This document shows, one piece after another, positions 1,877-64,000 of a stretch of 64,000 bases of DNA. The DNA comes from Candidatus Limnocylindrales bacterium. GTDB taxonomy: Bacteria; Desulfobacterota; Binatia; UBA1149; CAITLU01. How positions within the stretch are numbered: the stretch's first letter is position 1; each line of letters opens with the position of its first letter. Below the pieces are notes generated by a model. That model made no database searches. It saw nothing but the letters and a program-made list of their open reading frames with translations, and was not told where the DNA came from. Position numbers and translations under genes: made by a program. The stretch spans positions 140,753 through 204,752 of the forward strand of contig DATNBU010000037.1 in the NCBI GenBank assembly GCA_035571835.1, in the 5' to 3' direction.

Positions 1877-2053
1877 TGCGGAGGCGAATCTATGCTTTCG
1901 GTCACAGTTGCAGCAAACCGGAGTACGGATCGTCCGTGACGGCACGTTACTTTGAACGAACAAAGCTTTCCTGCGAACTGATCGAAGCGAATGATGCAGG
2001 AGTGAGCGCCGTGTTGTGAGGACAGCTCAACTGCAGAGCAAGCTGGCTTCGAA

Positions 2054-8427: not shown

Positions 8428-8428
8428 A

Positions 8429-8540
8429 AAATCGGGGACAGACACCGATTACGCGAAATCGGGGACAGACACCGATTAACCGAAATCAGTGTCTGTCCCC
8501 GAATAGTGGAAATCAGTGTCTGTCCCCGATTAACCCCGAT
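8429..8540. repeat. Four copies of a ~25-bp palindromic unit AAATCGGGGACAGACACCGATTA (two direct, then two inverted), followed by GGGACAG hairpins through ~8634
   Basis: Direct reading: aaatcggggacagacaccgattacgcgaaatcggggacagacaccgattaaccgaaatcagtgtctgtccccgaatagtggaaatcagtgtctgtccccgattaa. Each unit has an AATCGG/CCGATT stem. The same unit recurs at 63030..63108. Confidence 0.8.
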
Positions 8541-8639
8541 TAAATAAAAACGGGACAGATCCGGTTTTGGTTTCCGGAGCTGTCCCGTTCTTTGTCGCGG
8601 GTCGGTGCGCGGTGAGTCCGGGGCTGTCCCGGGTTTCGA

Positions 8640-8825
8640 TCAGTGAAGTGTGCGGACGCGGCGGTTGTCGGAGACGACGATGTCCTGGTTGAGGACGCTG
8701 CGGCGGACCGGCACGGGCAGGTTGGTCTCCATGATCCACGTGCCCTGAAGGCGCTTGCCGGAGAAGACCAGCTTCTGGCTGTCCGCCTTGGTCGAAGTCT
8801 CGTTCTTGTTTCTTGAAAGGTTCAT
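8640..8825 (-). CDS. Small hypothetical protein (61 aa)
   Basis: ATG preceded by GAGGAG 7 nt upstream; followed by GGGACAG hairpins at 8549..8634 that may act as terminators. Confidence 0.35.
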   Translation of the reverse strand: MNLSRNKNETSTKADSQKLVFSGKRLQGTWIMETNLPVPVRRSVLNQDIVVSDNRRVRTLH

Positions 8826-9075
8826 GGCTCAGGTCTCCTCGGGTGGCTTGCGTTCAGTCACCGGGAGAGAAGCGATTTTCGTGCCTCTCGGGGGCCCTCC
8901 CCTAACTCATTGAATTCACAGTGATCGCTTCCGCAGCGATGAGGAAGGCCCGAACGCGCCCGAACTGACGTGTACAAACTCGTACGGGTGCCAATCGCGG
9001 CATTTTTCGACTCACGCGAGGGAGCGAAGCGCCAGCCCGGCGACCGCGGACGACCGCGCCCGGCCAGTCGGAACT

Positions 9076-13993: not shown

Positions 13994-14106
13994 AAGGGGA
14001 CAGGTACAATTAAAAAAACCGTTTAAAATCGCGGCGGCGTTGCGGCGCATAAAATGCGTGCGCGATTTTCCACGTGATTTTTAAATGTACCTGGTCCCTT
14101 TTTTCA
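13993..14106. repeat. AT-rich nested inverted-repeat element (MITE-like) in the convergent intergenic region; likely a bidirectional terminator
   Basis: Outer arms AAAGGGGACAGGTACA ... TGTACCTGGTCCCTTT; inner arms AAAATCGCG ... CGCGATTTT; T-run follows. Shares the GGGACAGGTAC motif with 61373..61406. Confidence 0.6.
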
Positions 14107-14913: not shown

Positions 14914-15070
14914 GCGCGGGTCCTCCGGCATCGGCTCAAAGCCGAAGGCCGTCGGCGAGTAAAATCGGCGGCGAAATGCGTGCTGCGGCGCGCTTCCTGC
15001 GCGTCGCCTGCCGGCGAGTGGACATCGGGCGACGAAGTGGCTAGCAGAAGGGCCTTCCACTGCTCGTTCG

Positions 15071-15146
15071 GTCGCATAGCTCAGCTGGTTAGAGCGCTCG
15101 CCTCACATGCGAGAGGTCCCTGGTTCGAATCCAGGTGCGACCACCA
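15071..15146 (+). tRNA. tRNA-Val (anticodon CAC)
   Basis: GGTCGCATAGCTCAGCTGGTTAGAGCGCTCGCCTCACATGCGAGAGGTCCCTGGTTCGAATCCAGGTGCGACCACCA; acceptor GGTCGCA/TGCGACC; anticodon loop CUCACAU; CCA encoded. Confidence 0.9.
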
Positions 15147-15214
15147 TCTTTGATTCCCTGCACGTCCCGCGAAGTCCGAAACACGAATTGTCAAGGGCGA
15201 ATGGCAGATGCCCC

Positions 15215-15349
15215 GCGGCTCGGATGAAGATGCGGGTGAAGCACATTGTTCCGCTGTCAGAGCAGGCGGTCGCCATTCTCGGGGAACTCGCAGTCAGCGC
15301 GGCGTACAACTTCGCCGAGCATCTGCCGGAGCGGCGCAGAATGATGTAA
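15215..15349 (+). pseudogene. Remnant of a P4-type tyrosine integrase (internal ~45-aa fragment only)
   Basis: ARMKMRVKHIVPLSEQAVAILGEL resembles the conserved P4-integrase segment ERMKMRRPHIVPLSxQAL; no N-terminal or catalytic RHRY region is present. Confidence 0.5.
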
Positions 15350-15612
15350 GCGTGGGCGAGCTACCTGAATGGCCTGAAGGCTGGGGCGGTGGTAGTGCCG
15401 CTGTTTCGCAGCGCCTAGAACCGGAACCAAATATCGATCGCTACTTGCGACGAGGGGGCCGTTCCTCCGATGGCGCAGTCCGTGGTTCGGTATGGCCGAC
15501 CGAAGCGCCGCCAACGCAATTGGCGGAAGATGAGGTCGACGATCGTCGTTTCCACTCCGGCCATGCAGACACACGTTGGGCGGTCTTTTCTATTCCGGTC
15601 CAAAACGACTTG

Positions 15613-17151
15613 CTATGGTTCTGCTTCGACATCCGCCTCGTCCTCCTCCAACTTCTGTCGCAACTCATCTAACGCCGCAACCGCCAGCAGTTCTCGTACG
15701 GGGTAAGCGATGGGTAACATTGGGGTCCGCGGGTGGCTGGCCTCACCTGTCGGAAGCTCAACGCGATTCCCCTCCTCGTCCTTTCGGGACAAAACCACCC
15801 CGTCTGACCTCACCATGCTAAACAGGTCGCCATACCGACGAGGTGCAACGCCGAGGAAGGGTCCCAGCACCATGCGGGCCGCTTGAGCATCCACCGCTGA
15901 ATCCTCTCCCGCATGATGGATCGCATCTCCGTGGAGAGGTAGAGCCTCACTTTTCGGATATGGCTCGATATAGACGATTCGCTTCACTCCCGCCGCAACC
16001 GCGTGCCGAGCGCAGTTGTGACACGGGAAGGTGGTCGTGTAGAGGACCGCGTTTCGGACACTCACGCCAACACGCGCCGCCGACAAGAGTGCCTCCATCT
16101 CCGCATGAACGGTTCGTCCATACTCGGTGATGTCCCGTAGCTTTGATTCGGAAAGCACGCGTGTCGCTTTCTCGACATCATCCACCAAGCCCTGTTCCCT
16201 AAGGGCCTCGGCAGCCCTCGCCGCGATTACTCGGAGACGTGCGGTGTTCGAGTCGAACCCAATGGCGAGGTCTCGCATGTCGGGATTGTCCTCAGCGCTA
16301 TACAGCCCGCCGCCGGGACGTGGGACTTCATTGTGCCCAACGCCGATCAGGTCCCCGGTTTCAGCGATGAGAGCAGCTCCGATCTGTCGTGCGAGCGCGC
16401 CCGAACGAATCGATGCTCCGAACGCTGCGTGCATCCCAAATTCGTCGAGCGTGGGGGTGTGGAAAGGGTTGCCGAATACCAAGTCGAGAAAGCGATGGAG
16501 GGCCGCCTGTGTGGACTCGTAGCTGGAAACATCGATGAAGACATCTGAAAGATGGAATGTATCTCGGGTCTGTTGCCCGAACTTTTTGTCCTCCTCTTCG
16601 TCCTCATCACGTCTCAAAAGCTTCTCCGCCTGCTCTTCGGAGAGACCTTGCGAGACTTGGAGATGGCGCTTGCGCAAGTTGCGTGGGGCGAAAGCGCCGA
16701 TCAGATAGAACCCGGGTCCGTAGATTTGACGTAGGGTCCGGACTTCCTCCGGGCGTTTCAGCGAATCAAGAACGTGAACGTGCCGGGGCAGAGTCGGATC
16801 CGGGTCTTCGATGTCCTCCGTCGCCTGTGCGCGGCGCTCTGAGATGTTGAACACGGCTGACAGCACGAGCGCATTGCAGTAACCGGACCGTCGCCGGAGT
16901 TCGTTTCCGGCGGTCATATATGAGTTGACGCGATTGAAGTAGGGGTCGCCTTCGATCGGCACGCCGAGAATCTCGGCGAAATTCGGAAGGTCGTCGCTCA
17001 GTTTTACAGTGTTGACCTCGTACCGCCGAACGGCGAACAGGTCGCGTAGAACCGACGTGACGAAATCGCGGTTGCAGCCAATTGGTGCGACCAGTCCAAT
17101 GATGAGTTCGGAGTTGGCGGTCGCAAAGAGTGAAACCTCAGATGTCCCCAC
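15613..17151 (-). CDS. AvcD/DCD-like anti-phage deoxycytidylate (dCTP/dCMP) deaminase candidate: C-terminal CMP/dCMP-type zinc deaminase domain after a ~300-aa N-terminal domain
   Basis: HAEMEAL...PCHNCARHAVAAGVKRIVYIEPYP is the H[AC]E...PCxxC zinc-binding signature of dCMP/cytidine deaminases. The 512-aa architecture matches described defensive deaminases. Located in the tRNA island. Confidence 0.7.
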   Translation of the reverse strand: MGTSEVSLFATANSELIIGLVAPIGCNRDFVTSVLRDLFAVRRYEVNTVKLSDDLPNFAEILGVPIEGDPYFNRVNSYMTAGNELRRRSGYCNALVLSAVFNISERRAQATEDIEDPDPTLPRHVHVLDSLKRPEEVRTLRQIYGPGFYLIGAFAPRNLRKRHLQVSQGLSEEQAEKLLRRDEDEEEDKKFGQQTRDTFHLSDVFIDVSSYESTQAALHRFLDLVFGNPFHTPTLDEFGMHAAFGASIRSGALARQIGAALIAETGDLIGVGHNEVPRPGGGLYSAEDNPDMRDLAIGFDSNTARLRVIAARAAEALREQGLVDDVEKATRVLSESKLRDITEYGRTVHAEMEALLSAARVGVSVRNAVLYTTTFPCHNCARHAVAAGVKRIVYIEPYPKSEALPLHGDAIHHAGEDSAVDAQAARMVLGPFLGVAPRRYGDLFSMVRSDGVVLSRKDEEGNRVELPTGEASHPRTPMLPIAYPVRELLAVAALDELRQKLEEDEADVEAEP

Positions 17152-17615
17152 GCGCCTCAGACTATAGAGGTTTGACGGCTTCCTGGCAGCTGAGCTGTGC
17201 GTTTCTCACTGAAGTCGCCGTCCGGACCCTTGCAGCGACGATTTGGCTGGGCTGCTTCTCGTGAGGCGAACAGTAACTTGGCTCACTTCGGGAGGACTGC
17301 CCATGCCACGCTCTTCGACAGCGGAAGCGACACAGCAACAATTCCTTTCAGCAATGGGCGAAGAATGGGCAACGCGGGCAGTCACGACGGCGGAGAAGCC
17401 AGCGTCGCGGATGTGCGTGTCGCCTACGACCTGCTCGAACACATCTTGTCCGAAGTATACGAAGGCAAGGGAAAGTCGCTGAAGGTACTCGCGAAAAAGG
17501 TAAACAAGAAGAAGGGGCCGGTAACATAGATGCGCTTGCCTGCTCTCCATATGGCGATCTCGCTAGGCGTGCGTGATCTTAGTCGCTCAATGGAACCAAC
17601 CCACGGACGCCACCA

Positions 17616-18500
17616 ATGAAATACGACAGATTCAATCGGTTCGAAGGGACGAGCTGGGCATTTTGGCAGTTCAATGAGTACGAAACTCAGATCAACAGCG
17701 CGTACTGGTCTGGGGTCGCGGCAGTTTCTCGCGCCAGCTACGAGATTCGGCGTAGTGCACCGCCCGTCAATGCAAGGGTGGTAATGCATGCCACGGGAAC
17801 GGACGCGCAGCGAATCTCGGCTGAGGGTCCCGCTTTTGTTGCGAATCTCGGCGAATTTCTTAAGTGGAACAGAGCCAGCTTCATTTTGGCAGCAACCGGA
17901 GCCTTTGAAACGTACATCTGGCGAGTCGTGTTAACTGCGTTGATGTCGGATCCTGCCGCGTTGCATGGCAAGTCTCGAGCAATCGATGGAGCGACTTGGC
18001 TGAAGTTGGGACTTCGACCGGACTACAGTGACATCAAGAAGCGGGTTACGAAGGATACGTGGTTCCAGCGCTATGCGGCTGTTCGGAATATCTTTGGTGA
18101 AATTCCAGCGCTGAGTAGTCGTGTTCCAGAATTAGATCAGATCAGAATTTTTCGTAACAACGCTGGGCACGCATTTGGGAGGGATTTGACGGTAGAACCA
18201 AATCTCACGGCGCGAACGACGGAACGCATGCGAACTATTGACGACACAAAGTTTAAGGAGTGGCTAGGTGTAATCTCGAAATCCGCAAAGGCCATCGATT
18301 CAGTGCTTGTCAAGAACCATATCGGTGATTTCGAGCCTATGATTCACTTTCACAACTACTATGAATCTCTTGGTACTGTGAAGCCGGGGATTAGCAGCGC
18401 ATTTGCCTCACAGTACAAGTTGGCCTTGGCAAAAACCGAAGGTCACTCTAAGGGCAACGAATATGCCCTGACACTGATTCGCGCTTACCTGAACGCGTAG
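17616..18500 (+). CDS. Hypothetical protein with an HEPN-like Rx4H motif (Abi_2/AbiD/AbiF-like)
   Basis: 294 aa, low GC; ELDQIRIFRNNAGHAFGRDL fits the HEPN R-x4-H motif (Abi_2 consensus lRNxxAH). Confidence 0.45.
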   Translation: MKYDRFNRFEGTSWAFWQFNEYETQINSAYWSGVAAVSRASYEIRRSAPPVNARVVMHATGTDAQRISAEGPAFVANLGEFLKWNRASFILAATGAFETYIWRVVLTALMSDPAALHGKSRAIDGATWLKLGLRPDYSDIKKRVTKDTWFQRYAAVRNIFGEIPALSSRVPELDQIRIFRNNAGHAFGRDLTVEPNLTARTTERMRTIDDTKFKEWLGVISKSAKAIDSVLVKNHIGDFEPMIHFHNYYESLGTVKPGISSAFASQYKLALAKTEGHSKGNEYALTLIRAYLNA

Positions 18501-18520
18501 CGCGCGACGCTACAGTCGCA

Positions 18521-19303
18521 GTGCCAGCCGTTCTCCCCATGCCTAACTTCCTCAAGCGATTACTGCTGAGGCATGTTTTAAAGAAACCCTCTCCGGATGT
18601 CGTCCCACGAAGCGGTGAGGCGGCGCGACAAGTTGACTGTCGTGTCGCGTACATTCGCCGAACAGAGCCTGAGCCGGAGGTTCTTGTCCAATCCGCGGGA
18701 GCGTCGGAAGTTACGGGCCTTCGTCGAGAGGCGGGTCGATTTCAAGTACCCTTGTCTCTCAGCTACGAAGATTTTTCAGCTGGGGATGTCGAGATTATCC
18801 ACTGGTATGGATTGACGAGTTTTCGATACGATGGGCTGTGGCGTTACGTCCTCGAAGGATTGACCGGCTTCGATAGAGCAAGCTTTCTCTACGATCGCGC
18901 ACGGCAGTTGGGGTTCAATCGGAAGCCACTACTTCGGTACAGCCTAACTGAATTGCTAGATACCCTTGTGGAAGCCGCACAACTTCATCCAACCGAGGAA
19001 CACTCCTCCGTATCGTTGCTAGTTCGCCGTTACGGCGAACGATGCATAGAGCACCCAGACTGGGAAACCGTCCGCGGGAGCACACAATTGTTTCTCGATG
19101 CGCTTGTGAGTTCTGATTCTTTGGAGCGGACAGCCACTGGCTATCGAGTGAAGCCTAAAGCGGTTCTTGCCCTGGCGGAGTTTCAAGAAGCCGAGCGACG
19201 TCACCGTGAGAACTTCCGTACGGCTAGAGCGATGACTCGTCTCACGGTCGTGCTCGTTATCATCGGAATTGTTCAGGCATACGTGACTTGGATGAGTCCG
19301 TAG
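18521..19303 (+). CDS. Hypothetical membrane-anchored protein (single C-terminal TM helix)
   Basis: 260 aa beginning 20 nt after the previous gene; C-terminal RLTVVLVIIGIVQAYVTWMSP; no recognisable domain. Confidence 0.45.
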   Translation: MPAVLPMPNFLKRLLLRHVLKKPSPDVVPRSGEAARQVDCRVAYIRRTEPEPEVLVQSAGASEVTGLRREAGRFQVPLSLSYEDFSAGDVEIIHWYGLTSFRYDGLWRYVLEGLTGFDRASFLYDRARQLGFNRKPLLRYSLTELLDTLVEAAQLHPTEEHSSVSLLVRRYGERCIEHPDWETVRGSTQLFLDALVSSDSLERTATGYRVKPKAVLALAEFQEAERRHRENFRTARAMTRLTVVLVIIGIVQAYVTWMSP

Positions 19304-19375
19304 TCCTCGGTGGCCGCGAGTGCTCACAAGTTGAGATGGTGAGAAACTAGAACCTTCAGGGCGTGGGCAAGCGTT

Positions 19376-20764
19376 TCATCTTGGCGCATCGGCCAAGTAC
19401 TGATTCACGTCGGTGAACAGCGTCCGAATGGATTCCAGATGCTCCCGCCGAATGGCTTCGTTCTTCTCGTTAAGTAGCCCCTCCACTGCAGCCCGACCAG
19501 GTCTTTCAGTCTTCGTGCGGACATCGTTCGCAGGTTGGGCAAAGAATCTGTAGTCGGGAAACCGTCGCCGAAGCTCACCGACGAGTTCTGCTTTGTCGGC
19601 GTCGAGGATTCCTACAACCTTCGAATAGCCCAACTCCGCCAGGACAGCGGCGAGGTGTGCCATATTCCCCGCTCCTCCAACGCCCCAACCGAAGAAGTCA
19701 CCACCGAGTTGCAGATTGAGTTCCGTGAGCACGACGTCATAGAAGACCACATCCTCCTGTCCTTCGACGAGGACTACCCGATCGTCGACGAAGAAAATCT
19801 CTCTCGCGTTGAGTCCGAGCAAGTGAGGATTGTTTTTATCGCGAAGAAGTCCGTAGAGATGTCCGGCCGTTTCAACCGACAACTGGGAGACTCGCACTCC
19901 ATCCTCACGGAGGTGCGCACGCGCAATCGCCATGCCGCTTTCGAGTGCCCTGAGATCGATCAGGTAGGGCGAGTGCGTTGCGATGACGATCTGACGGCTC
20001 GCCGCGTACTCGAATATTATGTTTGCCAACCGCCGCTGAAGAGCCGGGTGGAGTGAGAGTTCCGGTTCATCGATTATGATGAGGTCGCCGTCTTTCGAAT
20101 CATAGAGCGCGTCTACGATGTAGAGGAGGCTCACCAACCCCTCACCTAACCCTTCGCTGCTATGTGTGCCGCGCGCGTCTTGAAACTTGAGAAAATAAGT
20201 CCCTTGGTCAGTCTGATCGATAGTCCAGTTAGGGAGGGGTGAAACGAGTTTGGAGAATAACTCGTCGAAACCTCCTCGGTCGCGATTAACGGCGAAGAGT
20301 CGGTGAGTCAGCTCATGGAGGTTGGTAGATCGAGAGGACGGAAGCCCCCCAGCGTGCTGCGCATAGTCAACTCTGCTCCACGTCGCTTTGCTGAAGTACG
20401 GGTCGAAGAACCGGCGAGACGGCAGAACGAGCAGTCTCCGAAGCGTTATGAGGTCGCCCGTGGTCTCTCGCTCAGTTTCGCTCTGCCCACGTCGGAGGCT
20501 TCGAAGCGTAGCTATACCACCATCGCACGAAGCGACGATTTCCACCCTATCTCCGGCAGGCAGGTTTCGACGGCCTTGCGAGAACGAAGGAGGTTCCGCC
20601 ATTCGGATCGCGCGGAAGGCCTCGATGATCGTCGTCTTGCCCGAGTTGTTTGCGCCAAGGACCACAGTCAGTCCGCTGCCGGGTGTTCCTGTGGGCTTGG
20701 CAAGGTTGAGCTGCTGGGCTGTCTGGAACCCCCGCAGCCCGTGAATGCGAATGTAGTCGAGCAT
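19376..20764 (-). CDS. OLD-family ATP-dependent endonuclease (AAA ATPase + TOPRIM), class-1 stand-alone
   Basis: Walker A GANNSGKTT; Walker B LIIIDEPELSLHP; C-terminal TOPRIM-like VVLVEGQEDVVFY...GILDADK. Confidence 0.8.
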   Translation of the reverse strand: MLDYIRIHGLRGFQTAQQLNLAKPTGTPGSGLTVVLGANNSGKTTIIEAFRAIRMAEPPSFSQGRRNLPAGDRVEIVASCDGGIATLRSLRRGQSETERETTGDLITLRRLLVLPSRRFFDPYFSKATWSRVDYAQHAGGLPSSRSTNLHELTHRLFAVNRDRGGFDELFSKLVSPLPNWTIDQTDQGTYFLKFQDARGTHSSEGLGEGLVSLLYIVDALYDSKDGDLIIIDEPELSLHPALQRRLANIIFEYAASRQIVIATHSPYLIDLRALESGMAIARAHLREDGVRVSQLSVETAGHLYGLLRDKNNPHLLGLNAREIFFVDDRVVLVEGQEDVVFYDVVLTELNLQLGGDFFGWGVGGAGNMAHLAAVLAELGYSKVVGILDADKAELVGELRRRFPDYRFFAQPANDVRTKTERPGRAAVEGLLNEKNEAIRREHLESIRTLFTDVNQYLADAPR

Positions 20765-20928
20765 CCTCCTACTTTGAGCGGCGGTCCCGCACCCGGCGAA
20801 CTGCGTTGTGCGGATTGCGAGGAGGTAGCCGCAATCGCAGCGTTGGGAGGTGGGGGCAACTTTGGGGGCACTCGGCGAGGCAGAACTCCGACTCTTGCCG
20901 CGAGGTCAGGTACTTACCGCATCAATGC

Positions 20929-20950
20929 GATTCCAGGTGCGCACCATCTT
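20929..20950 (+). repeat. attR-like imperfect direct repeat of the tRNA-Val 3' end
   Basis: gattccaggtgcgcaccatctt versus tRNA aatccaggtgcgaccaccatctt. Confidence 0.6.
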
Positions 20951-21068
20951 CTAACGGTCTATTCCGGTCACATAGGTTCATTTCATACCGGACACACTAC
21001 CGGCTCGTTGTCGCCAACCGTTCGACCAGATCTTCGATCCTGGCCCGAAGCGCCGAACGCGATGGGAA

Positions 21069-36269: not shown

Positions 36270-39200
36270 ATGACGAAGCACCTTTTCGCGCTGGCCGCGC
36301 TGCTGGTCGCCGCGAGCGCCACCACGTCCGCCGCAAGTCATGTGATGCCGGTCGGGCATCTGTTCGCGGCAAGCGACTATCCAAACCGCTACTCCTGGGA
36401 CTTCTGCACCCTCGGCGACGGAACCGGACTGAAGATCACGACCGATTTTCTGCAGCCTGATCTCGCCGAGCTCCGGCTAGAGCATCGAAGCGCCGGCGGC
36501 GCGCTGATCTCTCCCGCGCTCGTCATCGCAAGCGGACCGATCGCGGAAAGCGAGCTCTACTGTGGCGACAGCGGCGAGGCGATCGTCAAGTATCGTTTCA
36601 GCAACGACTCGTGCACGCGTTACCGCATGGTTTCTTCCGACCACGTGCACGCCGGCGACGAACGCCAGGCCGCGCCGAACGGAACATGCGACGTCAGCCC
36701 TGTGTTCGCGTTCTGGAGCGACGGCTACACGATGGCGTGGGGCGCGTATCATCCCGATGCACACACCGACATCTGGGCACAGGGCTTCGATCGCGACGGA
36801 AGTGAGCGTTACGCCCCGGTCGTACTCAGCGGCGATCCCTCGCGCTGGCACAGCTGGCCGGTGCTCGCGACGGATACCGACGGGAACACGCTGGTTTCGT
36901 GGGCGGAAGGAAAAGACGAACACACCGACATGGTTGCGGCGGCGATCGGAAAGGACGGCGATCCGGGCGCACCTGTCACGTTCTTTGGCGGCGGCTTCGA
37001 CCTCGTCGGCAACGGGCCGACTCGTGCCGCCGCAACCAACATCGGTTCGTACATCGTGTACTGGCCGGCTTCGGCCGCAGAATCGCTGCTCGGCCAGCAC
37101 CTCGTGATCGAAGAGATTGCGCCGCAGCCGACCACCACGTCCACCACGACATCGACCACGCTCGAGAATGACGTCACGCCGATGTTCGGCGACGAGCGAG
37201 GCTGGGGCCATGGAGCCGCAGTGTGGGAAATCGGACCGCAGCTTGCCGGTGACGGGCACGGCGGCTGGATGGCGTCGTGGAGCGGCAGTTCCGAGAATGC
37301 GTGGCCGTTCCGGCCGCAGTTCCGCTACACATCCGTATCGCACGATTCCGGCCGCCGCTGGTCGCGTCCGGTGCCCGTAGGGAGCGATGTCGCGACGATC
37401 GTCAGCGACGGCGCTGGAGAATGGCTGTCGATTGCGGATGCGTACCACTACCAGGACGTCGAGCCGTATCATTCCCACGTGATTGAGATCGGACGTACGC
37501 AGGGCGGCGGATCGTCGTGGTCGGAGACGCGCGCTGTGGCGGACCTTCCTCGCGATCCCGACGAAGACTGCTCGAACTACATCAGTGCGCTGACGCTTGG
37601 CCGCAACCACAGCGACACGCTGCTCGCGGCGTGGACGCAATCCACCGAATGCGACGACTCGGATCGGAGCACGATCCGGTACGACGTGTATGCGATCCGA
37701 TCCACCGACAGCGGCCAGCTCTGGTCAGCGCCGAAGCTGCTCTATACGGACTATGACAACGTTTTCCGTCGGAACATGAGCTTGACCGCGACGGGACAGG
37801 ACGGATGGGTGCTCAACGTGGCGACGGGAACCGCAATCCGCACGAACGACGGAGGAGTGACATGGACCGAACCGGAAGAGTTCGGATTCCAGGACGCCGC
37901 CTGCGACGCGTCCGGCTACTGCGTGTCGGTGAGCGATGGCGGCGACGGTTCTCACGGATGGGATGCTGACATCTTCGCATCCGTCTCCGAGGACGAAGGC
38001 CGCACGTGGAAACCGCTCGCCGCCGTCAACGACGATGCGCTCATCGATCACTCCCCGGACTACTCGCCGCGGATTGCGACCGACGGCAACGGACGCTGGA
38101 CGGTGGTGTGGGTTTCGCACCGCAATCTCGCCGGCAAACTCGGGTTCGATGCGGATCTTCTCGAAGCCGCCTCGACCGACGGCGGCCGCACGTGGAGCGC
38201 TCCCCGAGCCGTCAGCGTCGCCGCACAGAACGACGGATGGACCTTCGATGACTATCCGGTGCTCGCCTACGGCGCCGGCGCATGGATCGCGCTTTGGCAA
38301 AGGCGAACCGTGACGGAAAACTACGAAGCGTTCCGCAGCGACGCGCGCGTCGCGGTAGCCGACGACAACTGCGGCAACGAAATCGTCGACGGCTTCGACG
38401 AATGCGACGACGGCAATACCGTCAACGGCGACGGCTGCGACAACAACTGTTACGTGACCGCCTGCGGCAACGGCATCGTCACCGAAGGCGAGGAGTGCGA
38501 CGACGGAAACCGGCTCGACGATGATGCGTGCGTTGCGGACTGCGTTTCCGCGAGTTGCGGCGACGGCTACGTCGACAGCGAAGTCGAAGAGTGCGACGAC
38601 GGCAACAGCGACGAGAACGATGCCTGTACATCGGCCTGCACCATTGCGCGCTGCGGCGACGGCTTCGTTGCGCGCGGTAGCGAGGAATGCGATGACGGCA
38701 ATACCAGCAGCGAGGACGACTGCCTCGTCACGTGCGAGGTGGCGCGCTGCGGTGATGGTTTCATTCTCGACGGCGTCGAGGAGTGCGACGACGCCAACAG
38801 CAATACCAGTGACGGATGCCCGGCGAACTGCAAGCAAGCACGCTGCGGTGACGGCTTCTTGTGGCTTGGCGTCGAGGCTTGCGACTCGGGTAGCTCCAGC
38901 GGCGCCTGTCCGGCCAACTGCGGCGTGGCCGGATGCGGCGATGCAAACTCCGACGGAGAGCGCACGGCAGGCGACTCGATGTCGATCCTGCTTCACGCGG
39001 TCGGAAGGCCGAACCCCTGTCCGATGGACCAATGCGACGTGGACGGTAACCTGTGGATCAGCTCGCGCGACGCGCTGATGACGCTCGGATTGTCGGTCGG
39101 GATCGCGTACCCGACGCGCTGTGATCTCGGTCCATGGCTTACCGTCCGCCTTCAGGATGCTCGCACGTTCGGAGCGTTGCAGATCCACGTGGACACTTCG

Positions 39201-39488
39201 GCGGCGCCGCTTTGGGTGTTGTCCCACGCGCCGAACAATTCTGCAGCTTGCGAGTCGTTGCTTACCGGCTCTCTCATCGCCGGCCATGTCGGCGACGGCC
39301 AGCTCGACCTCGGCATGATCGCATCCCAGGGATTCTCCGGACCCGTTGATATCGCGCGATGCCGCGTCGAGGTTACCGGCGATGTACGACCCAGCCAGTT
39401 CGCCGTCGAAATACCGGACGTGACCGACGCCGACGGCGCGCCGGTCTACCCGCCGCCGAAAGTGATGCTGAGAGTGATTGCGGAGTAA
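36270..39488 (+). CDS. Secreted BNR/Asp-box repeat protein with about eight C-terminal Myxococcus cysteine-rich DGxCD repeats and dockerin-like motifs
   Basis: Signal peptide; Asp-box motifs STDSGQLWS, TNDGGVTWT, SEDEGRTWK, STDGGRTWS; repeats CGNEIVDGFDECDDGN.../CGNGIVTEGEECDDGN.../CGDGYVDSEVEECDDGN...; CDVDGNLWISSRDALMTLGLSVG. Confidence 0.75.
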   Translation: MTKHLFALAALLVAASATTSAASHVMPVGHLFAASDYPNRYSWDFCTLGDGTGLKITTDFLQPDLAELRLEHRSAGGALISPALVIASGPIAESELYCGDSGEAIVKYRFSNDSCTRYRMVSSDHVHAGDERQAAPNGTCDVSPVFAFWSDGYTMAWGAYHPDAHTDIWAQGFDRDGSERYAPVVLSGDPSRWHSWPVLATDTDGNTLVSWAEGKDEHTDMVAAAIGKDGDPGAPVTFFGGGFDLVGNGPTRAAATNIGSYIVYWPASAAESLLGQHLVIEEIAPQPTTTSTTTSTTLENDVTPMFGDERGWGHGAAVWEIGPQLAGDGHGGWMASWSGSSENAWPFRPQFRYTSVSHDSGRRWSRPVPVGSDVATIVSDGAGEWLSIADAYHYQDVEPYHSHVIEIGRTQGGGSSWSETRAVADLPRDPDEDCSNYISALTLGRNHSDTLLAAWTQSTECDDSDRSTIRYDVYAIRSTDSGQLWSAPKLLYTDYDNVFRRNMSLTATGQDGWVLNVATGTAIRTNDGGVTWTEPEEFGFQDAACDASGYCVSVSDGGDGSHGWDADIFASVSEDEGRTWKPLAAVNDDALIDHSPDYSPRIATDGNGRWTVVWVSHRNLAGKLGFDADLLEAASTDGGRTWSAPRAVSVAAQNDGWTFDDYPVLAYGAGAWIALWQRRTVTENYEAFRSDARVAVADDNCGNEIVDGFDECDDGNTVNGDGCDNNCYVTACGNGIVTEGEECDDGNRLDDDACVADCVSASCGDGYVDSEVEECDDGNSDENDACTSACTIARCGDGFVARGSEECDDGNTSSEDDCLVTCEVARCGDGFILDGVEECDDANSNTSDGCPANCKQARCGDGFLWLGVEACDSGSSSGACPANCGVAGCGDANSDGERTAGDSMSILLHAVGRPNPCPMDQCDVDGNLWISSRDALMTLGLSVGIAYPTRCDLGPWLTVRLQDARTFGALQIHVDTSAAPLWVLSHAPNNSAACESLLTGSLIAGHVGDGQLDLGMIASQGFSGPVDIARCRVEVTGDVRPSQFAVEIPDVTDADGAPVYPPPKVMLRVIAE

Positions 39489-55733: not shown

Positions 55734-56267
55734 ATGTGTTCATTACGCCGGGACCAGGCTCAAGACGAGCCGGCTTACAGACGATCATCGGAGTCTGCCC
55801 CCACGCGTGGAACAGTCGAGATTTCACGCAAGTCATTGACCGGCAGGCCGCGTTGTTGGACCCTTGCCGCCGTGGCCGTGGCCGTGGCCGTGGCCGTGGC
55901 CGTGGCCGTGGCTCTCGATACACTTGCGTACGCGCGGCGGCTCCGCGAGGCTGGTTTCAGCGAGCAGCAGGCCGAAGGTCAGGCCCAGGCGCTCGCCGCT
56001 GCCATGACCGATACCCTTGCGACCAAGCAGGATCTTCGCGAACTCGACGTACGCTTCGACGCACGGTTTACGGGAATCGAGACTCGTTTCGATGAGCAGG
56101 AAAAGCGGATGGCTATTCGGTTCGACGAGCACGAAAAACGGATCGAGATGCGTTTCGCGGAGCAGTCAGCACGCTTCGATGCCCGCCTTGCCGATCTCGA
56201 ACGTCGCATCACGCTTCGAATGCTGGCCGGAATTGGCGCGGTCTCGGCGCTGGTCAAACTTCTCTGA
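55734..56267 (+). CDS. DUF1640-family coiled-coil protein with a C-terminal TM helix; N-terminal (Ala-Val)7 encoded by a hexanucleotide repeat
   Basis: LDTLAYARRLREAGFSEQQAEGQAQALAAAMTDTLATKQDLRELDVRFDARF matches the DUF1640 pattern. The real start is probably one of the in-frame GTGs within 55869..55910, not the listed upstream start. Confidence 0.55.
   Translation: MCSLRRDQAQDEPAYRRSSESAPTRGTVEISRKSLTGRPRCWTLAAVAVAVAVAVAVAVALDTLAYARRLREAGFSEQQAEGQAQALAAAMTDTLATKQDLRELDVRFDARFTGIETRFDEQEKRMAIRFDEHEKRIEMRFAEQSARFDARLADLERRITLRMLAGIGAVSALVKLL
55869..55910 (+). repeat. Microsatellite (GCCGTG)x7
   Basis: gccgtggccgtggccgtggccgtggccgtggccgtggccgtg. In frame it encodes (AV)7; on the opposite strand it gives (HG)n. 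Confidence 0.9.
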
Positions 56268-58222: not shown

Positions 58223-59240
58223 AAGGCTCTTCGCGGGTTTCCACGTCGTTCTCCGCAAGGACGCGACCGCCCACGGACATGCGCCTTTCGCGACAAGTGC
58301 GAACATTCCCCGGGGAATGTTCGTGCAGCCATGTACAGTCGCGATTCGCTGCGCCCGCCCGGAGTGATTTCAAGCGCGAGCAAGCTACGCCCTTAAGCGG
58401 ATGACCAAAGCGCGCACAAAGAGACCGCCCGCACCATTTTCGTGAATCGTGACTGACCGTCGCCCTATGCGCGGACTTCGTAGAAGGGTCCAGATGCAAG
58501 GCAGATTCCGGCGAAGAGAGGGAGTCGTACTTCCCGTACGTCGACCAAACGCAGCCGGAATCGAACGCAGCAGATGGGCCCTTATACGAAGTCCGCCCAG
58601 CGATCGTGGCACTGACATAGCCGGTCGGCGATTGAGCGAAACGGCCGCAAGAAACACAAACCCCGGCAGCGCTTCCATCTCGAGAGACGGCCCGCCGGTG
58701 AGAGCGGGACTGCCGGGGTTCGGTGGTGTTTGGGTCCCCTTGAGGGGCGACCCAGCGATGTGCTGGAGCGCGTTTCCTCCTAAGAGGACACCACCTCACA
58801 GGTCACCTTGAACGAATAGATCACTGGATCACCTCCTTTGTTTTCGGCGGGGGACAATGAGCGGTCCCGAGCACCGCTGCCTCAGAGGAAGACCGCCGGT
58901 GTCCCCCCTGGGCCCCGGCCACCGACCGAAGTCGGCGATGAGGCCTGTGTACGCCTCGGCCAGGCGATCGCTGAACAGGCGGTCAAATTACGCTCGCGCC
59001 TGACGGTTGTCGAGACACGGAAGTGCAAATCTGCTGGTGTTTTTCCGCAAAAGCGGGTGACCGTGCGGTACTGCTTCGACGCCTGTTCGAACTCTGAACG
59101 CGTCGCGTCGCAAGACACGGCGAGCGCCGCCAACAAACATTCTTGCATTCCCACTGCAACACCCATTAGGTTGCGATCGGGAATCGGGGAGAGAGGCGCA
59201 CGTTTCGCGTGCGCGGTTCCGAAGCCTCCAAGGAAAGCTT

Positions 59241-61358: not shown

Positions 61359-61415
61359 GCATTCGACAATCCGGGACAGGTACGAATTGTAGTTCGTACC
61401 TGTCCCATCTCGGGA

Positions 61416-61449
61416 CGGCGGCGGATTTTCGAATCCGCCGCCGTTTTTT
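61416..61449 (+). terminator. Rho-independent terminator
   Basis: GGCGGCGGATTTTCGAATCCGCCGCC followed by GTTTTTTT; preceded by a GGGACAGGTACGAA/TTCGTACCTGTCCC hairpin (61373..61406). Confidence 0.8.
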
Positions 61450-61470: not shown

Positions 61471-62931
61471 TTACTGCCGGAGCGCCGGCTCGTATCCCCA
61501 CGGCAGATTGACCTGCTTCGACTCGAGATACGCGCGCAGGCCTTCGGGTCCGAGCTCGCGACCGATCCCGGACGACTTGAAGCCGCCGAACGGCGAGCCG
61601 AACTCCATCATGAAACCGTTGACGGTGTAGACGCCGGTGCGCACGCGGCGCGCGACGTCGAGCCCGCGGTCCACGTCGGCGGTCCATACGGATCCCGCGA
61701 GCCCGTATTCCGAGTCGTTGGCGATCGCGACCGCGTCCTTCTCGTCGTCGAACGGGATCAGCACGAGCACTGGTCCGAAGATCTCCTCGCGCGCGACGCG
61801 CATCGAATTGTTGACGCCGGTCATCAGCGTCGGCTCCACGTACCAGCCTTTGTCCATCGACGACGGGCGGCCGCCGCCGACCGCAACCTTGGCGCCTTCG
61901 CCGCGACCGATCGCGATGTAGCCTTCGACGCGCTCGCGCTGCCGGCTCGAAACCAGCGGCCCGCACTCGGTCGACGGATCCATCGGATCGCCGACGCGCA
62001 TCGCGCCGACTGCCGCCGAAAGGCGCTCGGCGACTTCGTCGTAGCGCGAGCGCGGCGCGAGAATGCGCGTCTGCCCGACGCACGCCTGGCCGTTGTTCAT
62101 GATCGCGCCGCCCATCAGGCCCGGGATCGCCATGTCGAGGTCGGCGTCCTCCATGACGATGCAGGCCGACTTTCCGCCGAGCTCGAGCGTGACGCGCTTC
62201 AGGTTCTGGCCGCAGATCGATGCGATGTGCCGTCCGGCGGCGGTCGAACCCGTGAACGAAACCTTGTCAACGCCGGGATGCCGCACGAGGTATTCGCCGA
62301 CCTCACGCCCGGTCTGGACGATGCTGACGACGCCTTCCGGAATGCCGGCCTGCGTGCAGGCCTCGGCAAGGATGTACGCGTCGAGCGGAGTCTCGGGCGC
62401 CGGTTTGACGACGATCGTGCAGCCGGCGGCCAGTGCCGGCGCGAGCTTGAGCATGATCGTGAACAGCGGGACGTTCCACGGCACGATCGCCGCGACCACG
62501 CCGACCGGCTCGTGGCGCACCACGCACGGTCCCATCATTCCCTGGCGCGTCTCTTCGAATGCGAACTCGCGCGCGAGCCCGGTGAAGTAGTCGAGCACCA
62601 TGTTGGCGGCCATCGCCTGGCCGAGGTTCGAAAAGCTGATCGGCGAGCCCATCTCGCGCGTGATCGTCTCGGCGATCTCCTCGCTGCGCCCCTGGAGGAT
62701 GGCCGAGAGCTGGGCCATGTGGGCCGCGCGCTCGGCGGCCGGCATGCGCGGCCACGGGCCGTCGTCGAACGCGTGGCGTGCGGCCGCGACGGCCGCATCC
62801 ACGTCGGCCTCGCGGGCCTCGGGAACCCGGGCGATGGCTTCCTCGGTATGCGGCGAGATCACGTCGATGGTCGCGCCGGAAGAGGGAGCCTGCCACTGGC
62901 CGCCGATGTAGAGCTTGTCCTGGGTCTGCAT
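61471..62931 (-). CDS. NAD(P)+ aldehyde dehydrogenase
   Basis: ELGGKSA, GQACVGQTRILAPRS (catalytic Cys), GSTAAG motifs. Confidence 0.9.
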   Translation of the reverse strand: MQTQDKLYIGGQWQAPSSGATIDVISPHTEEAIARVPEAREADVDAAVAAARHAFDDGPWPRMPAAERAAHMAQLSAILQGRSEEIAETITREMGSPISFSNLGQAMAANMVLDYFTGLAREFAFEETRQGMMGPCVVRHEPVGVVAAIVPWNVPLFTIMLKLAPALAAGCTIVVKPAPETPLDAYILAEACTQAGIPEGVVSIVQTGREVGEYLVRHPGVDKVSFTGSTAAGRHIASICGQNLKRVTLELGGKSACIVMEDADLDMAIPGLMGGAIMNNGQACVGQTRILAPRSRYDEVAERLSAAVGAMRVGDPMDPSTECGPLVSSRQRERVEGYIAIGRGEGAKVAVGGGRPSSMDKGWYVEPTLMTGVNNSMRVAREEIFGPVLVLIPFDDEKDAVAIANDSEYGLAGSVWTADVDRGLDVARRVRTGVYTVNGFMMEFGSPFGGFKSSGIGRELGPEGLRAYLESKQVNLPWGYEPALRQ

Positions 62932-63029
62932 GATCGAGCTGTTCTCCCGCAAATGAAGTGGTTCGGACCGCCCGTGTGTAGCCCGGAGGGCCGTCCGGCG
63001 GAAATCCAAACGATCGTTTGTCTCGCCGG

Positions 63030-63108
63030 AAATCGGGGACAGACACCGATTTCCCGAAACCCGGGACAGACACCGATTTCCCGAATTCGGGGTCTGACCC
63101 CGATTTCC
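63030..63108. repeat. Three direct copies of a ~27-bp unit A(A/T)(A/T)(T/C)CGGGGACAGACACCGATTTCCCG, the same unit as at 8429..8540
   Basis: aaatcggggacagacaccgatttcccgaaacccgggacagacaccgatttcccgaattcggggtctgaccccgatttcc. Confidence 0.8.
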
Positions 63109-63121
63109 TCAAAACCGCGAG

Positions 63122-64000
63122 CTAGACCGCGACCGCGCTCTTTTCCGTCAGATCGCGAACCCGCTGGCCGAGAATCCACGCGAGATTGCGGAACAGCTTG
63201 GCGCCGGTGCCCGGGAAGCGGCGACGAACGCGCTCGAGATCGGCCGACGAAAGCCGCAGGATTTCGGTGCCCGTTTCGGCAACCACGTCCGCCGAGCGCG
63301 GCTTGGTGTCGATCAGCGCGACCTCGCCGAACAGGTCGCCGGACTTCATTTTCGACAGCAGTTTTTCGCGGCCGCCTTCGGTGACGCTCGCGCGCAGCGC
63401 GCCGCTCAGCACCAGGTACATGCTGCCGTCGCTCTCTTCGCCGCGCTGGATCACGTGCTGTCCCGGCTCGAACGTCTCGATCGTGCCGAGCATGATCACC
63501 TTGCGCGCTTCCCACTTCGTGAAGTCACGAAGCAGCGCCGTCGCCGTGATGTCGCCTTCGAGCTTGAGCCCGACGATGTTCCACGCGGTCACGAGCCGCG
63601 TTGAGACCATGAGGATCGGCGTCATGGTGAGCTCGGTGACGATGGCGAGCAGCATCGTTACCGCGGAAAGGCCGCCGAAGTAGGCGGTCGGCACGAAGTT
63701 CGAGAACACCAGAATCGCGAAGCCGGCCGCGAGCGCGAGCGACGTCGACAGGATCGATTTCCCCTCGGCATGAAGGGTCGCGAACATCGCCTTTTCCTGG
63801 TCGTGGTGCCGGTCGAGCTCGGCGCTGTAGCGCGCCATGTAGTGCACCGTGTCGTCGACGGCGATGCCGATGGCGATCGCCGCGATCATGCACGTGCCGA
63901 CGTTCAGAGGAATGCCGAACACACCCATGATCCCGAAAATGACGGCGATCGGCACCAGGTTCGGGATCAGCGAAAGCAGGCCGGCGCGGATCGACATGAA
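63122..64000 (-). CDS. C-terminal part of an RND/MMPL-superfamily transporter fused to a cyclic-nucleotide-binding domain (gene continues beyond the window end)
   Basis: TM helices SIRAGLLSLIPNLVPIAVIFGIMGVFGIPLNVGTCMIAAIAIGIAVDDTVHY; C-terminal cNMP-binding GDLFGEVALID...RSADVVA. Confidence 0.65.
   Translation of the reverse strand, partial: FMSIRAGLLSLIPNLVPIAVIFGIMGVFGIPLNVGTCMIAAIAIGIAVDDTVHYMARYSAELDRHHDQEKAMFATLHAEGKSILSTSLALAAGFAILVFSNFVPTAYFGGLSAVTMLLAIVTELTMTPILMVSTRLVTAWNIVGLKLEGDITATALLRDFTKWEARKVIMLGTIETFEPGQHVIQRGEESDGSMYLVLSGALRASVTEGGREKLLSKMKSGDLFGEVALIDTKPRSADVVAETGTEILRLSSADLERVRRRFPGTGAKLFRNLAWILGQRVRDLTEKSAVAV

What the first reader, a model, noticed from the sequence alone, without database searches (positions are those of the whole stretch)
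63030..63108. Second locus of the same GGGGACAGACACCGATT repeat, 55 kb away
Three tandem ~27-bp copies (AAATCGGGGACAGACACCGATTTCCCG, AAACCCGGGACAGACACCGATTTCCCG, and the variant AATTCGGGGTCTGACCCCGATTTCC) sit between the aldehyde dehydrogenase gene and the RND-transporter gene. The core is identical to the 8429..8540 units, so this is a dispersed intergenic repeat family, seen at two loci within 64 kb.
Basis: seen in the sequence. Interest (0 to 1): 0.5.

Follow-up and report, generated by a model that had tools for sequence, protein, structure and literature searches.

The report
REP-type palindromic repeat array between genes
The three 27-base copies are real members of a dispersed family of short hairpin-forming intergenic repeats, best read as REP/REPIN elements of the kind copied by a domesticated tyrosine transposase: a known type of bacterial "junk-plus" DNA, found here in unusual lineages.

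Summary
Window 63028-63108 holds three head-to-tail 27-nt units. Unit 1 is a perfect 9-bp-stem hairpin, unit 2 is degenerate, and unit 3 is a near-perfect palindromic variant. The 17-nt core is identical to units at 8429-8536. The array lies 13 nt after the stop of an MMPL/cNMP-binding gene and 96 nt before the aldehyde dehydrogenase start; both genes are on the minus strand.

The same 19-nt core is multi-copy in a Myxococcales MAG, a Planctomycetaceae MAG and one large soil-metagenome genome. It occurs there mostly as inverted doublets that fold into long hairpins, often directly after stop codons. The doublet hairpin shows strong compensatory covariation.

Close relatives of this genome carry either a different related array or no array at the orthologous site, so the elements turn over.

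In the Myxococcales MAG, a RAYT-like Y1 transposase gene is flanked in inverted orientation by related units and then by one unit of this family. Three homologous transposase genes are flanked the same way by units of the same architecture.

Best reading: a REP/REPIN family, a new member of a known kind. The cognate transposase of the window's own genome was not found, and terminator or mRNA-stabilising effects remain untested.

The parts
63028..63054 (+). Unit 1: GGAAATCGG-GGACAGACA-CCGATTTCC, a perfect 9-bp stem with a 9-nt conserved centre
   Evidence: The DNA fold is -9.8 kcal/mol, z = -4.7. The 17-mer core is exact.
63055..63081 (+). Unit 2: a degenerate copy. The core has 1 mismatch and the 5' arm is mutated to GAAACCC, so it forms no hairpin of its own.
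   Evidence: The fold is -3.4 kcal/mol, z = -0.8.
63082..63108 (.). Unit 3: a near-perfect palindromic variant, GAATTCGGGGTC-T-GACCCCGATTTC. It has the outer arms of a doublet with the centre missing. It pairs with unit 1 in the composite hairpin.
   Evidence: Inverted repeats I1 and I3. The fold is -8.3 kcal/mol. The array folds at z = -4.1 as RNA and z = -5.5 as DNA. The same type of variant (GGGGTCTGTCCCC or GGGGTCTGACCCC) occurs in L147, L187, L166 and L225.
8429..8482 (+). Array 1: two units in + orientation, starting 1 nt after the TGA of the 191-aa ORF 7852-8427
8483..8536 (-). Array 1: two units in - orientation (core GGGGACAGACACTGATT). They form a nested ~48-bp hairpin with the two + units.
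   Evidence: Inverted repeat I1 (48-nt arms, 83% complementary). The RNA fold is -101.6 kcal/mol, z = -11.
63122..64000 (-). Upstream neighbour: 3' part of a gene for an MMPL/Patched-SSD membrane domain plus a cNMP-binding domain. Its stop codon is at 63122-63124.
   Evidence: An 84% ortholog in L240 has no repeat after its stop.
61471..62931 (-). Downstream neighbour: aldehyde dehydrogenase (PF00171), ATG at 62931
   Evidence: It is 100% identical to P0121, a MAG contig of 208,220 bp.

Best explanation
The array is a small cluster of REP-type elements (repetitive extragenic palindromes, or REPIN-derived units). Each 27-nt unit is a short palindrome: A/T-rich arms GAAATCGG / CCGATTTC around a conserved centre GGACAGACA.

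Shown here:
- The units are dispersed, non-coding and clustered head-to-tail or inverted.
- They fold into long hairpins.
- In other genomes they occur mainly as inverted doublets whose hairpin is kept by compensatory changes.
- They sit preferentially just after stop codons.
- They are gained, lost or replaced at orthologous sites.

Inferred:
- The family is multiplied by a RAYT-like HUH/Y1 transposase. By analogy with IS200/IS605 TnpA and E. coli TnpA-REP, this enzyme would bind the hairpin in single-stranded DNA and cut and rejoin it.
- Tandem and palindromic variants such as units 2 and 3 would be decay or rearrangement products of doublets.
- At this locus the array most likely has only secondary effects. 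It forms a stable 3' hairpin on the transcript of the MMPL/cNMP gene, which could affect stability or read-through. It also marks a synteny break. The ALDH gene keeps its own conserved operator-like palindrome downstream of the array.
For: Anatomy and statistics:
- Sequence and repeat structure.
- Hairpin folds of the arrays and units.

Dispersal:
There is also one Planctomycetota contig. The other matches are chance singletons.
- The 19-mer is found at 106 metagenome loci. Several dozen of these lie on large contigs of one metagenome assembly, Ga0134124. In that assembly 37 of 44 clusters are inverted doublets, and 20 of 44 lie within 20 nt of a long-ORF stop.

Structure under constraint:
- In 26 doublets, 11 of 26 pairs show changes on both sides (44 cells).
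- 92% of cells are paired, against 32-57% when the partner is slid.
- 0 of 500 shuffles reach the observed values.

Turnover:
- ALDH orthologs at 91% identity carry a different but related array (AATCGGGGACGGGTACGTATTCC twice, plus one inverted copy) at the same spot.
- Orthologs at 92% and 86% carry none.
- The 84% ortholog of the MMPL/cNMP gene has none after its stop.

Transposase link:
- L057 3021-3686 in the Myxococcales MAG matches Pfam Y1_Tnp (53.8 bits). Its best NCBIfam model is REP_Tyr_transpos (74.2 bits). Its only PDB hit is 4ER8, TnpA-REP.
- It is flanked by GTGGGACAGTCACCCTTTC units, two upstream and one inverted downstream, followed by a unit of this family.
- Homologs at 72%, 54% and 50% identity are each flanked in inverted orientation by their own units of the same design.
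- A RAYT-like gene in a Spirochaetota contig has GAAATCAGTGTCTGTCCCC about 90 nt upstream.

Literature: palindromic singlets and tandem arrays are described for REPINs in PMC3337134.
Against: - No transposase gene is present in the 64-kb window. The rest of the source genome could not be fetched.
- None of the 106 metagenome loci (588 kb) with the exact 19-mer carries a RAYT homolog.
- In the one MAG with a RAYT next to this family, the gene's immediate flanks are a sister family, not this one.
- The RAYT-like proteins score mostly just below NCBIfam's cut-off (57-78 bits against 80).
- There is no GTAG or CGTC head as in classical REPs.
- Copy number in the window's own genome is unknown.
- No direct evidence of transposition or of any RNA-level effect was obtained.
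Confidence: 0.75

Rival explanations
1. The units are primarily RNA elements. They would be transcription terminators or 3' mRNA-stabilising hairpins kept by selection at gene ends, with no mobile origin.
For: Both window arrays start 1-13 nt after a stop codon. 20 of 44 clusters in a related genome lie within 20 nt of a stop. The arrays form very stable hairpins. The hairpin covaries.
Against: The consensus scan finds no terminator-like site in either array, since there is no T run after a G+C-rich stem. An identical 19-24-nt sequence at dozens of unrelated loci and in several genomes is not needed for a terminator. Few G-U pairs appear among the covarying cells, and palindromic doublets look the same on both strands. 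Orthologous sites gain, lose or replace arrays. RAYT-like genes are flanked by the same kind of unit. This effect may still exist as a secondary role.
Confidence: 0.12
2. The conserved core is a recognition site for a host DNA-binding or DNA-uptake factor, comparable to a DNA uptake sequence or a nucleoid-protein site. Such sites accumulate as inverted pairs behind genes.
For: The most conserved part is the centre and 3' arm (GGGGACAGACACCGATTTC), identical in genomes labelled as different phyla. The heptamer GGGACAG/CTGTCCC occurs 23 times in the window against about 5 expected, and it appears in other intergenic hairpins. Uptake sequences in Neisseria are known, from my own knowledge, to form inverted pairs at terminators.
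Against: The whole 24-27-nt unit is conserved, not a 10-12-mer. By a rough reading-frame and GC3 test, most clusters in the two MAGs and both window arrays lie outside coding frames (26 of 27 in the Myxococcales MAG, 10 of 15 in the Planctomycete contigs). RAYT-like genes are specifically flanked by such units in inverted orientation. No competence or binding factor was identified.
Confidence: 0.08
3. The units are remnants of a miniature inverted-repeat element (MITE) of a DDE-type insertion sequence, or simple slippage products of one local hairpin.
For: The arrangement is tandem with a strict 27-nt period. Other MITE-like elements with terminal inverted repeats exist in the same window at 58467-58608 and 13989-14106.
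Against: No target-site duplication is visible in the sequences printed. No longer element with terminal repeats surrounds the units. No recurrent transposase or other protein family lies next to the copies. The same unit occurs at many unlinked loci, so local slippage alone cannot explain it.
Confidence: 0.05

Closest known systems
REPIN-RAYT systems of Pseudomonas fluorescens SBW25 (Bertels & Rainey; PMC3116915, PMC3337134, PMC5581495)
   Same: Short palindromic REPs occur mostly as inverted doublets that form a long hairpin, and the hairpin is kept by compensatory change. Tandem arrays and long palindromic singlets occur as by-products. The Y1 transposase gene is flanked by the repeats in inverted orientation. 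The location is extragenic.
   Different: The sequence is unrelated. The spacer between the two REPs is only 2-10 nt here, against tens of nt in SBW25. The host lineages are non-proteobacterial MAGs. The same core is shared by genomes labelled as different phyla, whereas REPIN-RAYT pairs are described as lineage-specific and vertically inherited. The cognate RAYT of this family has not been identified.
E. coli REP/BIME elements and TnpA-REP (PDB 4ER8; PMC3479197)
   Same: Both are imperfect palindromes of 20-40 nt in intergenic regions. Both cluster in direct or inverted order and often follow genes. The only solved structure matching the associated transposase-like protein is TnpA-REP.
   Different: There is no GTAG head. 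The arms are A/T-rich and the centre is conserved, rather than a G+C-rich stem. The protein match is weak (E = 0.003), and NCBIfam scores lie mostly just under the cut-off.
Subterminal hairpins of IS200/IS605 elements and the palindrome-associated elements derived from them
   Same: A hairpin in single-stranded DNA is the likely recognition structure for an HUH/Y1 enzyme. Conserved mismatches in the doublet stem (A.A and C.C in the Planctomycete type) could give strand specificity.
   Different: No transposase gene lies between the copies. The associated proteins match the RAYT model far better than the IS200 model (74 against 21 bits).
Neisseria DNA uptake sequences at terminators (recalled from my own knowledge, not tested)
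   Same: A short conserved motif is found as inverted pairs just downstream of genes.
   Different: The unit is much longer, it is linked to Y1 transposase genes, and no competence context is known.

Membership tests
REP (repetitive extragenic palindrome), general sense | Short (about 20-40 nt) imperfect palindrome able to form a stem-loop | tested here: met
   Unit 1 has a 9-bp stem and folds at -9.8 kcal/mol (z = -4.7). Unit 3 folds at -8.3 kcal/mol. Unit 2 is degenerate.
REP (repetitive extragenic palindrome), general sense | Extragenic location | tested here: met
   Both window arrays lie between ORFs with Pfam support or high GC3. Most clusters in the MAGs lie outside coding frames by a GC3/frame test (26 of 27 and 10 of 15). 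That test is crude.
REP (repetitive extragenic palindrome), general sense | Many dispersed copies in one genome | tested here: inconclusive
   The window has 7 units at 2 loci in 64 kb, and the rest of the source genome could not be obtained. Other genomes do meet the criterion: 23 and 13 loci in two MAGs and at least 44 clusters in one metagenome genome.
REP (repetitive extragenic palindrome), general sense | Clusters of units in direct or inverted order (BIME-like) | tested here: met
   The arrays are ++-- at 8429-8536 and ++P at 63028-63108.
Classical GTAG/CGTC-tagged REPs (E. coli type) | Conserved GTAG (or CGTC) tetranucleotide at the 5' foot of the hairpin | tested here: not met
   No GTAG or CGTC adjoins the units in the window or in the copies printed.
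REPIN | Two REPs in inverted orientation that together form a long hairpin | tested here: met
   The locus at 8429-8536 forms a nested hairpin. At 63028-63108, unit 1 pairs with the palindromic unit 3. In Ga0134124, 37 of 44 clusters are doublets, and a model doublet folds at -29 kcal/mol.
REPIN | Hairpin maintained by compensatory substitutions | tested here: met
   In alignment A1 of 26 Planctomycete-type doublets, 11 of 26 pairs change on both sides and 0 of 500 shuffles reach the observed values. This could not be tested on the window's own few copies.
REPIN | A RAYT gene in the same genome, flanked by the same repeats | not testable with these tools
   There is no Y1 gene in the window and the source contig is not retrievable. 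The nearest evidence is L057 in the Myxococcales MAG, which is flanked by a sister family plus one unit of this family. No RAYT was found in 588 kb of metagenome loci.
REPIN | Mobility: presence or absence at orthologous sites | tested here: met
   Upstream of orthologous ALDH genes, relatives carry a different array (L235/L236) or none (L237, L238/L239). There is none after the orthologous MMPL/cNMP gene in L240. This shows turnover but not the mechanism.
RAYT (REP-associated tyrosine transposase), for the L057 protein | HUH and catalytic Tyr motifs, and a match to the curated RAYT model | tested here: inconclusive
   The motifs HVH and Y..NP are present. Pfam Y1_Tnp scores 53.8 bits, above its cut-off of 23. 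NCBIfam REP_Tyr_transpos is the best model, but at 74.2 bits it is below the cut-off of 80. Relatives score 57-86 bits.
Intrinsic (rho-independent) terminator | G+C-rich stem followed directly by a T/U run | tested here: not met
   No terminator-like sites were found in 62700-63400 or 8200-8900. The hairpin at 8546-8592 next to array 1 has a T-rich tail but is a separate feature.
CRISPR array | Repeats separated by unique spacers of similar length (about 25-50 nt) | tested here: not met
   The units abut with a 27-nt period, and only about 6 nt vary between cores.
Known RNA families (Rfam 15) | Match at gathering score | tested here: not met
   Only the two tRNAs reach gathering score in the window. 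At E <= 1 there are only generic long-hairpin hits to animal miRNA models, far below their thresholds.

The most novel reading that the evidence does not exclude
The same 19-24-nt REP core (GGGGACAGACACCGATTTC) is multi-copy in genomes labelled Chloroflexota (the window; Limnocylindrales label on the 100%-identical protein), Myxococcota and Planctomycetota, with a single copy next to a RAYT-like gene in a Spirochaetota contig. If those labels are right, this REP-RAYT system has moved between phyla, or its core is held constant by a widely conserved recognition protein. Either would run against the current picture of REPIN-RAYT pairs as lineage-specific and vertically inherited. It would also give a broad natural series for working out how a RAYT reads its hairpin.
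Probability: 0.3. Interest if true: 0.6.

Novelty: new member of a known kind. Interest (0 to 1): 0.35.

Why it matters
REP/REPIN elements and their RAYT transposases have been studied almost only in Gammaproteobacteria. This family extends the pattern to uncultured soil, peat and freshwater lineages. It has very compact doublets with 2-10-nt spacers, clear compensatory evolution of the hairpin, and replacement of one family by another at the same intergenic site. For annotation, such arrays explain assembly breaks and synteny breakpoints, and they should not be mistaken for regulatory sites of the neighbouring genes. The apparent sharing of one core across phyla would be of wider interest if confirmed by proper taxonomic placement.

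Tried and rejected
- Fetching the source contig by exact protein look-up failed twice. A genome-wide census and a RAYT search in the window's own genome were therefore impossible.
- My own ORF- and GC3-based gene callers could not assign strands reliably in 63-70% G+C DNA. I used only the coarse results: coding versus non-coding, and distance to long-ORF stop codons.
- A RAYT search by motif and by phmmer found nothing in the window or the Planctomycete loci.
- The same search found nothing in the 106 metagenome loci.
- An all-against-all comparison of ORFs near the repeats found no recurrent transposase or other partner protein.
- The RAYT in L087 (Verrucomicrobium) has its own unrelated REPs. 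The 16-mer hit 2.3 kb away in that locus is chance.
- A full-text literature search for the core sequence returned 0 papers.
- blastn of array 1 against the plasmid collection found no match.
- The viral contig scan gave 4 single hits without the flanking arms, which I judge to be chance.
- Rfam gave nothing meaningful.
- CRISPR, a riboswitch or sRNA, an operator for the ALDH gene, and a canonical terminator were considered and rejected; the reasons are in the membership table.

Full report
**1. The observation**

Reading 62800-63400 shows three head-to-tail 27-nt units:
- 63028-63054: GGAAATCGGGGACAGACACCGATTTCC
- 63055-63081: CGAAACCCGGGACAGACACCGATTTCC
- 63082-63108: CGAATTCGGGGTCTGACCCCGATTTCC

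The repeat finder and TRF agree: spacing 27 and 27; period 27, 3.3 copies.

It has one mismatch at 63062, 8484(-) and 8511(-), and three mismatches in unit 3. That is 9 matches against 0.13 expected, with no shuffle reaching 9.

A looser scan of the 19-nt core, allowing up to 5 mismatches, finds no other copy in the 64 kb.

The second locus, 8429-8536, has four units: two forward and two reverse.

**2. Local context**

Both neighbours of the 63-kb array are on the minus strand.
- The upstream ORF, 63122-64000, runs off the window. It has an MMPL/Patched-SSD membrane part and a cNMP-binding domain. Its stop codon is at 63122-63124, 13 nt from unit 3.
- The downstream gene is an aldehyde dehydrogenase (PF00171) with ATG at 62931, 96 nt from unit 1.

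Array 1 begins one base after the TGA of ORF 7852-8427.

**3. Structure**

- Unit 1 is a perfect 9-bp stem (GGAAATCGG/CCGATTTCC) around GGACAGACA.
- Unit 2 has lost its 5' arm.
- Unit 3 is a near-perfect palindrome.
- The whole 63-kb array folds into one composite hairpin in which unit 1 pairs with unit 3. The RNA fold of the minus strand is -52.8 kcal/mol (z = -4.1). The DNA fold has z = -5.5.
- Array 1 folds into a nested hairpin of about 50 bp (z = -11) and is followed by a separate hairpin with a T-rich tail.
- Neither array matches a canonical terminator or sigma-70 promoter pattern.
- Neither array matches any Rfam family.

**4. Census elsewhere**

Almost all hits are single and lack the flanking arms, so I read them as chance. 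Two assemblies stand out.
- A Myxococcales MAG (CAINDP01, about 70% G+C) has 23 loci with the unit GAAAATGGGGACAGACACCGATTTCC.
- A Planctomycetaceae MAG (CAZYDC01, about 63% G+C) has 13 loci.
- One Planctomycetota contig (L006) also carries the unit.
- The window itself is not among these loci.

*Metagenome collection.* The scan for the 19-mer returned 106 loci and was not truncated.
- Several dozen of these lie on large contigs (up to 680 kb, 65-67% G+C) of one metagenome assembly, Ga0134124. They carry exactly the window's form of the unit.
- There, 37 of 44 clusters are inverted doublets: GAAATCGGGGACAGACACCGATTTC, 2-3 nt, then GAAATCGGTGTCTGTCCCCGATTTC.
- 20 of 44 clusters have the stop codon of a long high-GC3 ORF within 20 nt. 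The TGA often overlaps the GAAATC arm.
- That genome also shares two other repeat families with the window, so it is probably a relative.

*Identity of the source.* The ALDH protein is 100% identical to a protein of a MAG labelled Candidatus Limnocylindrales, on a 208,220-bp contig. I could not verify that label.

**5. Constraint on the hairpin**

In the Planctomycete-type doublets the core is constant, but the 9 nt outside it differ widely between copies while staying complementary. An example is GACAGAATT...AATTCTGTC.

On an alignment of 26 doublets:
- 11 of 26 pairs have changes on both sides (44 cells).
- 92% of cells pair, against 32-57% when the partner is slid.
- No shuffle out of 500 reaches any of the five measures.
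- Two internal mismatches (A.A and C.C) are conserved.

The outer arms were not constrained by my selection pattern, so this is genuine covariation of the doublet hairpin.

**6. Turnover at the orthologous site**

ALDH orthologs at 86-92% identity keep the downstream synteny: a PQQ-propeller gene followed by an acetyl-CoA hydrolase gene. Upstream of them lies an inositol-phosphatase gene instead of the MMPL/cNMP gene.

Between that gene and ALDH:
- L235/L236 carry a different but clearly related array: AATCGGGGACGGGTACGTATTCC twice, plus one inverted copy.
- L237 and L238/L239 carry none.

The palindrome CAAACGATCGTTTG next to the array (window 63007-63020) is conserved in L235 and L237.

An 84% ortholog of the MMPL/cNMP gene has no repeat after its stop.

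So the array sits at a synteny break, and arrays come, go or are replaced on a short evolutionary scale.

**7. Link to a transposase**

A motif screen of all fetched loci found one HUH/Tyr protein, at L057 3021-3686 in the Myxococcales MAG.
- It matches Pfam Y1_Tnp at 53.8 bits.
- Its best NCBIfam model is REP_Tyr_transpos, at 74.2 bits against a cut-off of 80. The IS200 model scores only 21 bits.
- Its only PDB match is 4ER8, TnpA-REP, at E = 0.003.

The gene has two GTGGGACAGTCACCCTTTC units upstream and one inverted downstream. A unit of the present family follows 55 nt further on. That sister unit also forms a mixed doublet with a unit of this family in L017.

The protein family is very large, with more than 7,600 hits. 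Three homologs fetched with flanks, at 72%, 54% and 50% identity, are each bracketed in inverted orientation by their own short units:
- GAAAATGGTGCCAGCCTCCGTTTC
- AATTCGTGACAGCCACCAATTTCC
- GATCTGGGGACACAATACGGAAC

These share the design of A/T-rich GAAAT/ATTTC arms with a GGGGACA- or GACAG-type centre.

A RAYT-like ORF in a Spirochaetota contig, fetched only because of the 16-mer, has GAAATCAGTGTCTGTCCCC about 90 nt upstream. I regard this as suggestive only.

This gene-between-inverted-repeats layout is the hallmark of RAYT-REP systems (PMC3337134, PMC5581495).

**8. Interpretation**

The best-supported reading is a REP/REPIN-type family.
- The doublet hairpin is the conserved, probably replicated, entity.
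- Single, tandem and palindromic units such as units 2 and 3 are derivatives. Palindromic singlets of the form a-palindrome-a' and tandem arrays are described for Pseudomonas REPINs (PMC3337134).
- The mechanism is inferred by analogy with IS200/IS605 and TnpA-REP (PMC3479197) and is not shown here. It would be recognition of the hairpin in single-stranded DNA and cleavage and joining by a Y1 enzyme.

What is missing is the cognate RAYT.
- There is none in the window.
- There is none in 588 kb around exact 19-mers in metagenomes.
- In the Myxococcales MAG the gene's immediate flanks are the sister family, not this one.

Secondary effects on the MMPL/cNMP transcript are plausible from the position after stop codons, but they are untested.

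**9. Rivals**

- A purely RNA-level terminator or stabiliser does not explain the identical 19-24-mer at unrelated loci and across genomes, the turnover, or the transposase flanks. The terminator scan was also negative.
- A host-factor or uptake-type site cannot be excluded. It is favoured only by the strong conservation of the core and the excess of GGGACAG (23 against about 5 expected).
- A DDE-type MITE or local slippage is not supported: there is no target-site duplication, no longer element, and no partner protein.
- CRISPR is excluded by the absence of spacers.

**10. Verdict**

The element is a new member of a known kind (REP/REPIN). It differs from classical REPs in three ways: no GTAG head, very short spacers, and non-proteobacterial hosts.

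The one surprising aspect is that one core is shared by genomes labelled as different phyla. This depends on MAG taxonomy that I could not check.

Noticed in passing
window 58467-58608: An element of about 135 bp with terminal inverted repeats (GCGGACTTCGTAGAAGGGTCCA ... TGGGCCCTTATACGAAGTCCGC) lies in the 1-kb gap between the acetyl-CoA hydrolase and PQQ-propeller genes. Five copies at 81-91% identity occur in loci of the Ga0134124 metagenome genome. It looks like a second, MITE-like dispersed repeat.
   Followed up: partly
window 13989-14106: An element of about 115 bp has inverted ends AAAAGGGGACAGGTACA... / ...TGTACCTGGTCCCTTTT. It lies between a chlorite-dismutase-family gene and an enoyl-CoA hydratase gene. 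There is a 74% match in L161 of the Ga0134124 genome. It shares the GGGACAGGTAC motif with the hairpin at 61373.
   Followed up: partly
window 61373-61444: Between the convergent PQQ-propeller and ALDH genes lie two hairpins. One is a perfect 14-bp stem, GGGACAGGTACGAA/TTCGTACCTGTCCC. It resembles the repeat family found upstream of ALDH in relatives L235/L236. The other is a 13-bp G+C hairpin followed by T7, which is terminator-like.
   Followed up: partly
window-wide; hairpins at 8546-8592 and 8617-8635: The heptamer GGGACAG/CTGTCCC occurs 23 times against about 5 expected. Many occurrences lie in intergenic hairpins outside the two arrays. This suggests several sister repeat families built around the same motif.
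   Followed up: partly
window 63007-63020: A perfect 14-bp palindrome, CAAACGATCGTTTG, lies between the array and the ALDH start. It is conserved upstream of ALDH orthologs in L235 and L237, which lack this array. It is probably the operator of a regulator of the ALDH gene.
   Followed up: partly
window 15150-21000: G+C drops to 54-58% directly after tRNA-Val(cac) at 15070-15146. ORFs in this stretch include a 512-aa protein with a cytidine-deaminase domain and a 462-aa AAA_21/AAA_15 ATPase. This is possibly an integrated island with defence-like genes.
   Followed up: partly
window 63122-64000 against L235-L240: There is a synteny break exactly at the array. Relatives have an inositol-phosphatase gene upstream of ALDH, and a different neighbour after the MMPL/cNMP gene.
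   Followed up: yes
window 55869-55912 and 56076-56164: A perfect (GCCGTG) x7.3 hexamer repeat and a 33-nt x2.7 tandem repeat were found. Their coding status was not examined.
   Followed up: no
window 2-1963 (-) and 36270-39488 (+): Two large proteins combine BNR/sialidase-like repeats with DUF4215 cysteine-rich repeats, which are typical of Myxococcota. This fits poorly with the Chloroflexota (Limnocylindrales) label attached to the 100%-identical ALDH protein. The taxonomic placement of the source MAG deserves a check.
   Followed up: no
L129, L131, L137, L165, L169, L170, L200, L203, L226: The same single-copy locus, in an organism of about 55% G+C, carries one copy of the 19-mer in an imperfect hairpin. 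It was recovered from nine contigs of different metagenome assemblies. It is a widespread soil organism with only one such site among the loci fetched.
   Followed up: no
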